DNA of 64,000 nt from Microcystaceae cyanobacterium (lineage in GTDB: Bacteria; Cyanobacteriota; Cyanobacteriia; Cyanobacteriales; Microcystaceae), in NCBI GenBank assembly GCA_041746575.1, contig JBGTGT010000116.1:1-64000 (forward strand), read 5' to 3'. A program made the position numbers and the translations under genes. Positions 25,526-29,520 of the stretch are shown piece after piece. A model generated the notes under the pieces. It was not told the origin of the DNA, made no database searches, and worked only from the letters and a program-made list of their open reading frames with translations. Each line of letters opens with the position of its first letter. Position 1 is the stretch's first letter.

Positions 25526-26371
25526 TTAGGCTTCTTCTTCTGAATTCAAAGCAGTAAACATCGCTTTCTGTTGAGCGATTTGATACACTTGTTGCAAAAA
25601 TTGCGTAACTAAATTGGCATCTTCATAGGGTAAGGGAATTTGCCCTAGAATATCCAATAAACTTTTCTGTTGAGCGGGTGGCGTAATTACCACTAAATCA
25701 GCATCTAAAGGATGAGTATATCGCCAAAATTCTAGATAATCGGCTTCTGGTGACGGGGATGATGGTGGAGAAGATAAATCTTCATTCGACTCGACGGAAA
25801 AACAAAAATCTGTCAGGGATCTAGGATTTTCCATGGCGATTTTACGGCGTTTTTCTCCTAGCTTTTCGAGGATTTGAACTTTGGTTTGTCCACGCAATTG
25901 AAAAATAATAAAGGGATCTTCACTAAAATAATCTGCCAGTTGATAATAGACAGCCGCAATATGTTTACAGGGATTTGCTTTGTCGGGACAGCTACAACGA
26001 GAACGCACTTCCCCTAAGCGAAAAGGAAATAAGCTTAAGCCACTTTGTTCAAAAACTTTTTCAATATTATCTGGCATCGTTCCTGCCAATAATTGTGCTG
26101 AAAAGATAGCTTTTTCAGACAAAGTTTCTATGACATAATCCCAATCTTCATCGCTAAATTTTTCTAAGCGAATAGACACTTCATAAGGGTCAATTTCACT
26201 GCCTTGAACTTGAGCAAAAGCTTGAGAATCTTTAAAATCAATGTTTAAAACATGACCTTCCCTAGCATAATTTCTGGCTCGTTCGAGTCGCTTTTTAAAA
26301 CGATAAGAATCCAATAATTCTAACCATCTTTCGACCCACCATTCTCGACTTTCTACTTGATAATTGGTCAT
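25526..26371 (-). CDS. SWIM zinc finger protein
   Basis: CSCPD...CKHIAA motif. Confidence 0.9.
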   Translation of the reverse strand: MTNYQVESREWWVERWLELLDSYRFKKRLERARNYAREGHVLNIDFKDSQAFAQVQGSEIDPYEVSIRLEKFSDEDWDYVIETLSEKAIFSAQLLAGTMPDNIEKVFEQSGLSLFPFRLGEVRSRCSCPDKANPCKHIAAVYYQLADYFSEDPFIIFQLRGQTKVQILEKLGEKRRKIAMENPRSLTDFCFSVESNEDLSSPPSSPSPEADYLEFWRYTHPLDADLVVITPPAQQKSLLDILGQIPLPYEDANLVTQFLQQVYQIAQQKAMFTALNSEEEA

Positions 26372-26385
26372 TCGACTTTTCAGAA

Positions 26386-27306
26386 TTACTTTTGAGGGCT
26401 TGTCGTGCTAGGGGGAATTTGTTCACGAGTAATAACAATAACTTCAAAGAAGTTACGTATTCTATCTGGGTCAATCGGCACAATACCATCTTTGCCGAAA
26501 TAACGATTTACCATTTCAGTATAACGGGCATCCCCAGTTAGGTAACCATCCATCATTTTAACAATGGCATAATTCACGGTATGCAGAAAACGGGAATCGC
26601 CTTGGGGAACCATACAAGCAATCCCATGATTATAGTAGGCTTCTTTGGGAATAACCGCATAAGCATCGGGACTTGCTAATGTTTGACGCATTCCTTCTAA
26701 AATAGCAGAATCAAAGGCAAAACCATCAATTTTTCCTGTTTCTACTGCTTGTAATCCCTCTTCAAGAGTGGCAATGGAAACAGGGGTAATATTGGCAGAT
26801 AAAGTATCAATAGAACGTTCTTTAATAAGATTACCAATAAAGCCAATTCTTTTTCCGCGTAATGCTTCTGGATTGGTGATATTACTGTCTTTTTTGACTA
26901 AGACTTTAATGCCCGATACCCCATATCCTAAAGAAAAATCTACGTATTTATCCCGTTCCCACGTAAAAACCGTATCACAAACCAAGTCCAACTTCTTATC
27001 AATAACTTTTTGAATTCGTTCACTGAAGTTTTCGCTGGTATCATAGTCTAGTCGGACACTTCTCCCTAAATCCTCTTCTAACTGTTGACGAATCACTTCT
27101 AGAAGTTCCACCGAGTATCCGGTTAATTCCTGTTTATCATTAACATAAGAAAAGGGAACAATATCCGTTCTCACGCCGACACTTAACACACCTGTTTTTG
27201 AAACCTTTTCCATCACAGTTTCTGCTAACGTTGAAGCGGGGACAGCAAAAATTGCGATTAAGCTGAGAAGACTAGCGGATAACGTTTTTAACATTTTGCG
27301 AGACAC
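26386..27306 (-). CDS. grrP: extracellular solute-binding-like orphan protein, GrrP family
   Basis: Signal peptide and amino-acid SBP fold (FTWERDKYVDFS, GIACMVPQGDS). No permease or ATPase is adjacent, and it is divergent from the Gly-rich precursors. Confidence 0.85.
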   Translation of the reverse strand: MSRKMLKTLSASLLSLIAIFAVPASTLAETVMEKVSKTGVLSVGVRTDIVPFSYVNDKQELTGYSVELLEVIRQQLEEDLGRSVRLDYDTSENFSERIQKVIDKKLDLVCDTVFTWERDKYVDFSLGYGVSGIKVLVKKDSNITNPEALRGKRIGFIGNLIKERSIDTLSANITPVSIATLEEGLQAVETGKIDGFAFDSAILEGMRQTLASPDAYAVIPKEAYYNHGIACMVPQGDSRFLHTVNYAIVKMMDGYLTGDARYTEMVNRYFGKDGIVPIDPDRIRNFFEVIVITREQIPPSTTSPQK

Positions 27307-27443
27307 CTAATCGGATAACATTAGAGATTATTCTAAAGGAGTTTTGCCCCAAACATCACAAAAGTTTGTTTACAATTTGTGTCATTCTCGTCCCTTTTTT
27401 GCTACAGTTCTCAAAGACCTTATGCTGGTGGAGTTAGTATTTC

Positions 27444-27797
27444 ATGGAGATGACCCGAAAAATTTCTTGTGTTGGTTTTCTATTAGCCGTTTCGACGATT
27501 ACTGCTTCTATGAAAGTTAATGCAACCCCTTCACTTCCCCATTTGTCTATAGAATCCCGTTTATCCCGTTTAACTGAAGCCATGCAACAAAGTGGCATTG
27601 AGGCTTCTCACCCCCTTGCTGAAGATAATTTCCTTCTCGGTATTGGTTGGGCTGATGGGAATCACCGAGGTTGGGTTAACACAAACCGGGGGGGATTTGC
27701 CAATCATCAAGGTGGGGGGGGATTTGCTAATCGCAATTGGGGAGACGGTGGCCGCTTCTATAATCATCACGGGGGGGGTGGTTTCCTAAATCGTTAA
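27444..27797 (+). CDS. grrA: GrrA/OscA-family RiPP precursor 1
   Basis: Signal-like N-terminus, leader IESRLSRLT, and a Gly-rich core with WAD, WVN, FAN, FAN, WGD, FYN, FLN. Confidence 0.9.
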   Translation: MEMTRKISCVGFLLAVSTITASMKVNATPSLPHLSIESRLSRLTEAMQQSGIEASHPLAEDNFLLGIGWADGNHRGWVNTNRGGFANHQGGGGFANRNWGDGGRFYNHHGGGGFLNR

Positions 27798-27839
27798 TCT
27801 TAAATTCTTGACAATTACTTAAATATTGGAGACTATTTA

Positions 27840-28235
27840 ATGAATTTGAGCAATAAAATCACTTTTTTAGGAATTCTACTGTCAGTTTCTACTTTAACAA
27901 GCACTTTAGAAGCTCAAGCATCTTCCCAGTCCCCCGATTCTACCATTGAATCCCGTCTTTCTCGACTCACCGAAATCATGAAACAGCGAGGAGTTGACCT
28001 AGACGAAATGAGTCCGTTTATTGAAGATGAATCCCTCCTTAGTGTTTGGGCAAATGGTCGTGGCGGTACTTGGGTTAATACTCGTTTAGGGGGATTTGGC
28101 GATCATAATCGCGGAGGGGGTTTTATTAATCGGAGTCCTTGGCGTGATGGCGGATATCGTCGTTGGGGAGATGGGGGTCGTTTTTATAATCGTGGTCGCT
28201 GGCCGAATGGCAGCGGCTTTCTTAATCGTTGGTAA
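27840..28235 (+). CDS. grrA: GrrA/OscA-family RiPP precursor 2
   Basis: Same leader IESRLSRLT; core with WAN, WVN, FGD, FIN, WRD, WGD, FYN, WPN, FLN. Confidence 0.9.
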   Translation: MNLSNKITFLGILLSVSTLTSTLEAQASSQSPDSTIESRLSRLTEIMKQRGVDLDEMSPFIEDESLLSVWANGRGGTWVNTRLGGFGDHNRGGGFINRSPWRDGGYRRWGDGGRFYNRGRWPNGSGFLNRW

Positions 28236-28317
28236 TCCATCATAATTATTACAATTAGGGATGATTCTCCTGTCTGGTTTTCCCTACCTTAATTCCCCTA
28301 CTCCGTAAATTAATTAG

Positions 28318-29520
28318 ATGAATCAGCAATCTTGTTTAACGCCTTCTTTTAATCCGAATCATAGTCTTGATATTACTGAATTTGGTCCTATTTCTTTAGT
28401 TGTCATTCAACCGACTGCTTATTGCAATCTTAATTGTGATTATTGTTATTTACCCAATCGCCATCTCAAAAACAAACTTTCTTTAGACTTAATTGAACCC
28501 ATTTTTCAAAGAATTTTTACCAGTACTTTTTTGGGAGAATTTATCGATGTTTGTTGGCACGCCGGGGAACCGTTAGCTGTCCCTGTCTCTTTTTATAAAG
28601 ACGCTTTTAAAGAAATTGCAAAAGCGAGCCAAAAGTATAATACCAATAATATTCCCGTTTATCATTCAGTGCAAACCAATGGTATTCTCATTAATCAAGC
28701 TTGGTGTGATTTATTTAAAGATTATCAGATTGCTGTCGGAATCAGTATTGATGGTCCTGCTTTTCTCCATGACCGTCATCGTCAAACCCGTACAGGATTG
28801 GGCAGTCATGATGCTGTGATGCGGGGGATTGATTATTTACATAAAAATGAAATTCCTTTTAATATTATTGCTGTTATTACTGAAGACTCCCTTGATTATC
28901 CTGATGAAATCTTCAATTTTTTCTTAGAAAATGGCATTGATGATGTTGCTTTTAATATGGAAGAAACGGAAGGCATCAATCAATCTTCTTCTTTAGATAA
29001 AGTGGGAATTGAAGAACGTTATACTGCTTTTATTCAACGGTTTTGGCAACTGACTACCGCTAGAGAAGCTCAAATGAGAGTAAGGGAATTTGAGTCGATT
29101 TGTAGCTTAATTTGTGAAGATAAACGACTAGATAAAACCGATATGAATCACCCTTTTATGATTGTCAATATTGACGCACAAGGTAATTTTTCGACTTTCG
29201 ACCCTGAATTATTAGCAATTAAAACTGAACCTTACGGCGATTTTATTTTAGGAAATGTTTTAACCGATAGTTTTGAATCCGTTTGTGATCAGGATAAATT
29301 TAAACAGATTTACCAAGATGTGGCAGAAGGGGTAAATTTATGCCGTCAAACCTGCTCCTATTTTGGCGTTTGTGGAGGAGGAGCAGGTAGTAATAAATAT
29401 TGGGAAAATGGCACATTTCGTTCTACAGAAACCCGCGCCTGTCTTTATCGTGTTAGAACAGTAACCGACAGAGTTTTAATTGAACTAGAAAATGCTTTTG
29501 GGATAATTAACAATGAATAA
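28318..29520 (+). CDS. grrM: cyclophane-forming radical SAM/SPASM peptide maturase, GrrM/OscB family
   Basis: QPTAYCNLNCDYC (CxxxCxxC), WHAGEP, FNMEETEG, FSTFDPEL and the C-terminal CRQTCSYFGVCGGGAGSNKYWENG...C. Confidence 0.92.
   Translation: MNQQSCLTPSFNPNHSLDITEFGPISLVVIQPTAYCNLNCDYCYLPNRHLKNKLSLDLIEPIFQRIFTSTFLGEFIDVCWHAGEPLAVPVSFYKDAFKEIAKASQKYNTNNIPVYHSVQTNGILINQAWCDLFKDYQIAVGISIDGPAFLHDRHRQTRTGLGSHDAVMRGIDYLHKNEIPFNIIAVITEDSLDYPDEIFNFFLENGIDDVAFNMEETEGINQSSSLDKVGIEERYTAFIQRFWQLTTAREAQMRVREFESICSLICEDKRLDKTDMNHPFMIVNIDAQGNFSTFDPELLAIKTEPYGDFILGNVLTDSFESVCDQDKFKQIYQDVAEGVNLCRQTCSYFGVCGGGAGSNKYWENGTFRSTETRACLYRVRTVTDRVLIELENAFGIINNE

What the first reader, a model, noticed from the sequence alone, without database searches (positions are those of the whole stretch)
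26386..29520. Multi-cyclophane RiPP locus: GrrP, two different precursors and one GrrM/OscB radical SAM
Seen: a CxxxCxxC/SPASM enzyme sits directly downstream of two paralogous Gly-rich peptides sharing the leader IESRLSRLT. Core 1 has 7 aromatic-X-(N/D) triplets (WAD, WVN, FAN, FAN, WGD, FYN, FLN). Core 2 has 9 (WAN, WVN, FGD, FIN, WRD, WGD, FYN, WPN, FLN). Established: GrrM/OscB-type enzymes cross-link the aromatic ring of residue 1 to residue 3, making three-residue cyclophanes (triceptides). Inference: one enzyme could install up to 16 rings on two substrates, including W-x-D, F-x-D and Pro-containing W-P-N sites. The family is known, but I know of no described product or biological role for these particular peptides.
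Basis: partly seen in the sequence, partly recalled or inferred. Interest (0 to 1): 0.8.

Follow-up and report, generated by a model that had tools for sequence, protein, structure and literature searches.

The report
Known cyanobacterial GRRM cyclophane-peptide cluster
This is an intact, ordinary copy of a catalogued cyanobacterial system in which one iron-sulfur enzyme staples many aromatic residues of glycine-rich, probably exported small proteins into tiny rings; the already studied reference cluster has the same four-gene layout, and what the product does remains open.

Summary
All four genes pass their NCBIfam cut-offs: GrrP 243/190 bits, GrrA 84 and 90/31, GrrM/OscB 619/310; the sulfatase-maturase model fails (166/349). 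All 7+9 triplets are present. The locus of the characterised enzyme OscB (OIP69445.1, 63% identical) has the same layout: divergent grrP, two precursors, rSAM. Of 80 related loci, 21 have two or more precursors; precursors carry a median of 8 triplets, and 9 loci exceed 16. W-x-D rings are already described for OscB; only F-G-D and W-P-N are rare motifs. Precursors begin with a Sec-like signal (76 of 82 pass; control 21 of 345), and no protease or exporter is conserved nearby. Where the cluster splits, grrP stays with grrA rather than grrM (6 of 7 genomes, not independent). Likely mechanism: ring formation in the cytoplasm, general-pathway export, and an envelope role with GrrP; export and role are inferred. 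This scan has reported the same system before on other DNA. Verdict: new member of a known kind.

The parts
26386..27306 (-). grrP: orphan family-3 periplasmic binding protein with signal peptide; likely true start ATG at 27294; mature chain probably starts at E29 (A|ETV)
   Evidence: TIGR04262 243.3 bits > 190; PF00497; AlphaFold2 pLDDT 89, closest solved folds are GltI/DEBP Glu/Asp-binding proteins, TM 0.76; A28-E-T-V nearly invariant in 53 GrrP
27400..27408 (+). candidate extended -10 promoter element (TG-C-TACAGT) for grrA1-grrA2-grrM
   Evidence: TTTTTTGCTACAGT identical in 4 of 6 aligned divergent intergenic regions including the window; function inferred; not picked up by the consensus scan
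27444..27797 (+). grrA1 precursor: Sec-like signal (about 1-27, VNA|T), conserved helix 36-53 (IESRLSRLT), 49-aa Gly-rich core with 7 aromatic-x-N/D triplets
   Evidence: TIGR04260 84.2 bits > 31; triplets; signal test
27840..28235 (+). grrA2 precursor: Sec-like signal (about 1-27, AQA|S), same helix, 62-aa Arg/Gly-rich core with 9 triplets including the rare FGD and WPN
   Evidence: TIGR04260 90.3 bits > 31
28318..29520 (+). grrM/oscB: cyclophane-forming radical SAM maturase; CxxxCxxC at 36-43; invariant C342, C346, C352, C375; no room for an N-terminal RRE domain
   Evidence: TIGR04261 619.3 bits > 310; 247/393 (63%) identical to OscB OIP69445.1 with no gaps; Radical_SAM domain starts at residue 30; Cys conservation over 80 sequences

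Best explanation
This is a standard GRRM (GrrP-GrrA-GrrM, also OscA/OscB) triceptide locus of a unicellular cyanobacterium. Step 1 (inferred from orthology to OscB, about 0.9): cytoplasmic GrrM makes a 5'-deoxyadenosyl radical from SAM, removes H from C-beta of the Asn/Asp at i+2, and joins that carbon to the ring of Trp (C7) or Phe (C4) at i. Each ring costs 2 Da, up to 7 rings on GrrA1 and 9 on GrrA2. Step 2 (inferred, about 0.7): the enzyme grips the conserved IESRLSRLT helix, which both paralogs share, so one enzyme serves both. Step 3 (inferred, about 0.6): with no dedicated protease or exporter, the precursors leave by the general Sec route and signal peptidase I cuts at AxA. This gives 90- and 104-residue ring-studded, cationic small proteins of about 9.7 and 11.8 kDa (14 and 18 Da lighter if fully modified), not short released peptides. 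Step 4 (least supported, about 0.35): they serve a housekeeping role in the cell envelope together with GrrP, a degenerate amino-acid-binding protein. The second precursor comes from the kind of lineage-specific duplication that recurs across the family.
For: All four genes pass their curated cut-offs. L031's rSAM is OIP69445.1, the accession that PMC11002830 gives for OscB with Trp-C7/Asn-or-Asp and Phe-C4/Asn cross-links. L031 has the same four-gene layout. The window enzyme departs from consensus at only 5 of 160 highly conserved columns, none in Cys motifs. grrA and grrM occur in the same 23 of 41 genomes, with none discordant; grrP lies beside grrA in 21 of those 23. Signal-like N-terminus: 76 of 82 precursors against 21 of 345 control ORFs; 0 of 82 have twin-Arg or lipobox motifs; one member is annotated 'conserved exported hypothetical protein' by its source. 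No neighbouring gene family recurs in more than 13 of 81 loci, and the two top clusters are Microcystis synteny. Where grrM lies elsewhere, grrP stays next to grrA in G012, G019 and G041-G044. In several lineages the paralogous precursors group by lineage with starred support. The helix is conserved (45% mean identity) between variable linkers (14% and 21%).
Against: No experiment exists for this enzyme or these peptides. Full occupancy of all sites is not shown, and F-x-D makes up only 10 of 612 family triplets. The signal test is a simple rule of mine, not SignalP, and the segment could be an uncleaved anchor. The bufferin preprint states that macrocyclic peptides would be poor Sec substrates. 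In G045 all three genes lie on different contigs, and four of the six P-with-A splits are Microcystis kin, so only about two independent events support the GrrP-GrrA link. GrrP keeps the Arg and Asp that anchor amino acids in GltI (R118, D199).
Confidence: 0.85

Rival explanations
1. Classical secreted bioactive RiPP: the ringed core is cut into short cyclophane peptides by unlinked host proteases (for example at the many Arg residues) and released as an antimicrobial or signal; GrrP acts as receptor or immunity factor.
For: The cores are Arg-rich (5 and 11 R+K). Core sequences vary while the leader is conserved. Other three-residue cyclophane RiPPs are antibiotics (dynobactin and darobactin, PMC11002830). 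Distribution across the class is patchy: 13 of 121 genomes.
Against: No conserved peptidase or ABC exporter is nearby. The system is near-universal in this family (20 of 24) and is retained after operon splitting. It sits among housekeeping genes (murE, efp, atpD region) with no GC anomaly.
Confidence: 0.25
2. The N-terminal hydrophobic segment is not a cleaved Sec signal. It is a membrane anchor or part of the enzyme-recognition leader, and ringed GrrA stays on the cytoplasmic or thylakoid membrane.
For: The segment is somewhat more conserved (40%) than the GrrP signal from the same loci (33%). Rings may hinder passage through SecY (statement in the bufferin preprint).
Against: It has the tripartite n/h/c anatomy with a small-x-Ala site in 82 of 82 precursors. 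The gene stays linked to a periplasmic-type protein with an invariant Cys pair.
Confidence: 0.2
3. GrrP is an ordinary orphan amino-acid-binding protein that works with an unlinked ABC permease and is only co-regulated with grrA.
For: Its fold and closest solved relatives are Glu/Asp-binding proteins. R118 (98%) and D199 (100%) are kept. The genome has further orphan paralogs, one of which passes the same model with no grrA nearby.
Against: The two Thr positions of the GltI pocket (T92, T140; their ligand role is recalled, not tested) are variable in linked GrrP (V113, I161) but kept in the unlinked paralog. grrP is found in 53 of 59 precursor-bearing loci.
Confidence: 0.3
4. The rSAM is an anaerobic sulfatase maturase and the Gly-rich ORFs are bystanders.
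For: anSME is the best PDB sequence match (E 1.6e-24).
Against: The sulfatase-maturase models score far below their cut-offs (166/349, 126/484, 114/441). The enzyme is 63% identical to OscB and co-occurs perfectly with grrA.
Confidence: 0.01

Closest known systems
OscA/OscB triceptide locus of Oscillatoriales cyanobacterium CG2_30_40_61 (OscB OIP69445.1; precursors OIP69446.1 and OIP69447.1; Nguyen et al. 2020 as summarised in PMC11002830)
   Same: Same gene order and orientation (divergent grrP, two precursors, rSAM); rSAM 63% identical with no gaps; same Cys ligand set; same signal-helix-core anatomy; shares the WGD and FIN triplets.
   Different: 16 triplets against 12. The window adds FGD, WPN, WRD, WAD, WAN, WVN, FAN, FYN and FLN motifs and a His-rich core 1. 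These exact proteins are singletons at 90% identity.
GRRM system: TIGR04260 GrrA/OscA1, TIGR04261 GrrM/OscB, TIGR04262 GrrP
   Same: All three models are passed above their cut-offs and the genes are adjacent.
   Different: Nothing of substance. The GrrP score (243) is at the low end of grrA-linked copies, shared with its nearest relatives.
Bufferins (MNIO-modified RiPPs; bioRxiv 10.1101/2024.03.18.585515)
   Same: Works like them in logic: a long precursor with a Sec signal, a cytoplasmic maturase, no dedicated exporter or protease, and a protein-sized product.
   Different: Different enzyme class and chemistry (thiooxazoles on Cys). GrrA cores have no Cys. Export is shown for bufferins and only inferred here.
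Other 3-CyFE triceptide synthases (XyeB/XncB, FxsB/MscB, AmcB, YhhB, ChlB)
   Same: Same aromatic(i) to C-beta(i+2) chemistry class; sequence relatives.
   Different: All of their models score below cut-off here (AmcB 300/425, YhhB 152/445, FxsB 121/370, XyeB 74/450).

Membership tests
GRRM / OscA-OscB triceptide system | rSAM passes TIGR04261 (GrrM/OscB) | tested here: met
   619.3 bits, cut-off 310; OscB itself scores 629
GRRM / OscA-OscB triceptide system | Adjacent Gly-rich precursor passing TIGR04260 | tested here: met
   84.2 and 90.3 bits, cut-off 31; only these two copies in the genome
GRRM / OscA-OscB triceptide system | Adjacent orphan binding protein GrrP (TIGR04262) without ABC permease or ATPase | tested here: met
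   243.3 bits, cut-off 190; the flanking genes are a SWIM-domain protein and murE
GRRM / OscA-OscB triceptide system | Repeated W/F-x-N/D motifs in the core | tested here: met
   7 and 9 motifs; 0 of 100,000 shuffles reach these counts
Triceptides (3-CyFE products) | Aromatic to C-beta C-C cross-link on a three-residue motif, shown by -2 Da and NMR | not testable with these tools
   Definition from PMC11499958; needs co-expression, MS and NMR
Radical SAM superfamily | CxxxCxxC motif and radical SAM core | tested here: met
   C36/C40/C43; PF04055 59 bits > 29.5
Canonical two-cluster SPASM domain | Seven to eight Cys for two auxiliary clusters | tested here: inconclusive
   No Pfam SPASM hit at E <= 0.01. 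Only C342/C346/C352/C375 are invariant in the C-terminal part; C323 is 73/80 and C262 is 62/80; OscB has the same set. One auxiliary cluster is likely; the anSME ligand pattern used for comparison is recalled.
Anaerobic sulfatase maturase | TIGR03942, PRK13745 or PRK13758 above cut-off | tested here: not met
   166/349, 126/484, 114/441
Sec-exported RiPPs (bufferin-like logic) | Sec/SPI signal peptide on the precursor | tested here: inconclusive
   Rule-based test met by both window precursors and by 76 of 82 family members, control 21 of 345; no trained predictor and no localisation data

The most novel reading that the evidence does not exclude
GrrA-type products are not short peptides. They are Sec-exported small proteins carrying 7-9 strained carbon-carbon rings that are made in the cytoplasm and then threaded through SecY, and they are received in the periplasm by GrrP, a repurposed amino-acid-binding protein. 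That would be a radical-SAM macrocycle RiPP using general secretion, against the published expectation that macrocycles are poor Sec substrates, and it would point to an unrecognised envelope function conserved in 20 of 24 genomes of this family. This is a property of the whole family, not of this locus, and the scan noted the signal before.
Probability: 0.3. Interest if true: 0.6.

Novelty: new member of a known kind. Interest (0 to 1): 0.2.

Why it matters
As a locus it adds little: two more natural substrates, with two rare motifs (F-G-D, W-P-N), for an enzyme family whose chemistry is published. The open questions belong to the family: the native product, how a many-ringed chain is exported, and what GrrP does. 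Any culturable, genetically tractable carrier would test these better than this record.

Tried and rejected
(1) Complex prediction of mature GrrP with GrrA2 residues 28-131, both as alignments: no verdict (score 0.00, partner fold uncertain). It is not evidence either way.
(2) RNA-run search: no RNA holder was listed, so expression was not examined.
(3) Promoter and terminator scan: counts at chance level (13 vs 8.9 +/- 3.3; 3 vs 2.9 +/- 1.6).
(4) Search for a conserved protease or transporter among neighbours: none.
(5) The primary OscB papers (PMID 32807886, PMID 38742762) and DOI 10.1021/acschembio.2c00621 are not held. I saw only their titles in reference lists and a review's summary. Whether F-x-D or W-P-N rings, or the signal peptide, are discussed there or in their supplements is unknown to me.
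(6) Paper searches for GrrA/GrrM/GrrP and the TIGR numbers (0 papers), for OscB + Gly-rich + cyanobacteria + precursor (0) and for triceptide + cyanobacteria + signal peptide (1, not relevant) found no role for the product. One search was swamped by plant OSCA channels.
(7) Synechocystis locus tags recalled from memory (sll0224, sll0064, slr0304) could not be tied to these genes by any search and were dropped.
(8) The precursor trees could not settle whether the two window copies are sisters (SH-aLRT 89, unstarred, long branches).
(9) A phylum-wide genome search returned no answer; a class-wide one was used instead.

Full report
Observation. grrP is on the minus strand, head to head with a plus-strand run of precursor 1, precursor 2 and the rSAM gene. 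Both precursors contain IESRLSRLT, and all 16 triplets are as listed. Every W/F in core 1 and 9 of 10 in core 2 have N or D two residues on; 0 of 100,000 shuffles of either core reach that. The grrP start is probably the ATG at 27294 rather than the GTG at 27306. The context is housekeeping (atpD region, a SWIM protein, murE, efp), and GC of 38-39% is within the window's range.

Family. All four proteins pass curated NCBIfam cut-offs: GrrP 243/190, GrrA 84 and 90/31, GrrM/OscB 619/310. Sulfatase-maturase and other cyclophane-synthase models stay below their cut-offs. The genome has one grrM and only these two grrA. The best named rSAM matches are Crocosphaera MAGs at 71-72%.

The reference locus has the same layout. 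A genome scan with GrrM confirmed 101 relatives and returned the best 80. In one of them, L031, the rSAM is by exact look-up OIP69445.1. A review names that accession as OscB and reports Trp-C7 to C-beta(Asn or Asp) and Phe-C4 to C-beta(Asn) links shown by co-expression and NMR (PMC11002830, passages). L031 reads divergent grrP, precursor, precursor, rSAM. The window enzyme is 63% identical to OscB without gaps and leaves family consensus at 5 of 160 highly conserved columns. A 2024 paper is titled as showing that OscB accepts diverse Gly-rich precursors (title seen in a reference list only). Neither primary paper could be read.

How ordinary. Of the 80 loci, 59 have a precursor within the DNA held and 21 have two or three; one of those has a broken first copy. 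Six have the window's exact intact layout (L007, L008, L026, L031, L032, L038). Among 80 full-length precursors (four fragments dropped) the median is 8 triplets, range 3-12, and nine loci exceed 16 in total, up to 30. Of 612 triplets, W-x-D makes up 129 and F-x-D 10. FGD occurs only here in this set, and WPN in two other loci plus L085. Among 40 relatives, 22 have grrA and 13 of those have two or more matches; across the class, 13 of 121 genomes have it. In trees of 56 precursors, paralogs from several lineages group with each other, so duplication is recurrent. The position of the window's pair is not resolved.

All 82 full-length precursors have an uncharged hydrophobic stretch followed by a small-x-Ala site, and 76 also have a preceding basic residue; 21 of 345 other ORFs of similar length pass the same rule; none has a twin-Arg or lipobox motif. 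The rule is mine, not a trained predictor. After the signal come a variable linker, a conserved helix (45% mean identity; R39 invariant), a variable spacer and the core. The rSAM core starts at residue 30, leaving no room for an RRE domain, so the helix is the likely docking site (inference). No protease or exporter recurs among neighbours. The simplest reading is modification in the cytoplasm, Sec export and signal-peptidase cleavage, giving chains of 90 and 104 residues (9.71 and 11.81 kDa before rings). Bufferins are the precedent for a Sec-exported RiPP. That preprint also says macrocycles would be poor Sec substrates (passages), which is both the main argument against this step and the reason it would be interesting.

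GrrP. grrA and grrM occur in the same 23 of 41 genomes, and grrP adjoins grrA in 21 of those. Where grrM lies elsewhere, grrP stays with grrA in G012, G019 and G041-G044; in G045 all three are apart. Four of these are Microcystis, so this is about two independent events. The model is confident (pLDDT 89) and matches Glu/Asp-binding proteins (TM 0.76, 24% identity). The residues aligned with GltI R97 and D182 are kept (R118 98%, D199 100% of 53), while those aligned with T92 and T140 vary; that these four bind the amino acid is recalled. An unlinked paralog on contig C84 also passes TIGR04262 and keeps both threonines. This fits a linked GrrP with a changed ligand, but does not show it.

Enzyme detail. 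Beyond CxxxCxxC, only C130, C342, C346, C352 and C375 are invariant in 80 sequences, and OscB has the same set. Pfam finds no SPASM domain. One auxiliary cluster is likely, which again is a family trait.

Mechanism and odds. Ring formation on both precursors, about 0.9 (orthology). Helix as leader, about 0.7. Sec export as a ringed small protein, about 0.6. Envelope housekeeping role with GrrP, about 0.35. The rivals are a released bioactive peptide (0.25), an uncleaved anchor (0.2) and GrrP as a plain amino-acid binder (0.3); they address different steps and are not exclusive.

Literature and earlier notes. Searches found no role for the product in the held library, which lacks the primary papers, so absence from print is not established. 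PMC11499958 (parts 1 and 2 of 3) gives the triceptide definition and about 3900 putative pathways. This scan already reported the system at least five times on other DNA, including two-precursor loci and the signal peptide. Those notes are leads, and the points used here were tested independently.

Verdict. Real, correctly named and ordinary: a new member of a known kind, interest 0.2. The family-level question of a Sec-exported polycyclophane protein with a dedicated periplasmic partner remains worth testing (probability 0.3, interest 0.6 if true).

Noticed in passing
L001:5559-6470 (G000:C84): A second, unlinked protein passes the GrrP model (215.6 > 190 bits), 36% identical to the linked GrrP and with a more canonical amino-acid pocket. 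Similar lower-scoring unlinked matches occur in most family genomes, including G018 and G020 where no grrA or grrM was found, so TIGR04262 over-calls GrrP.
   Followed up: partly
L002:3705-4535 (G000:C46): A third orphan family-3 binding protein (123 bits, below cut-off), again with no ABC permease among the ORFs of 150 aa or more beside it.
   Followed up: no
L014-L021, L023, L024, L047, L064; G012, G019: grrM stands alone in these 12 Microcystis loci. In the four Microcystis genomes checked and in G012 and G019, grrP-grrA lie elsewhere (0.5-2.3 Mb away in the closed chromosomes). Genome-mining tools that look only near the rSAM would miss the precursor.
   Followed up: yes
L075:5352-7191: A GrrM (62%) with a precursor-like gene apparently split over two frames, in a Candidatus Eremiobacteraeota assembly, outside Cyanobacteria.
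   Followed up: no
L039:4093-7210: In a Planktothrix MAG, grrP, the first grrA and grrM are each broken into pieces; decay or sequencing error.
   Followed up: no
window 27648-27794: Core 1 has four His (GNH, NHQ, NHH), and its composition stands out in the family alignment; possible metal binding, untested.
   Followed up: no
window 25526-26371 (-): A SWIM zinc-finger gene starts 14 bases after the grrP stop on the same strand. It was not shared with any of the 80 related loci, so it is probably not part of the system.
   Followed up: partly
L001:6683-7624: A methyltransferase-like ORF carries a run of 12 prolines in mid-sequence; possible low-complexity insertion or assembly artefact.
   Followed up: no
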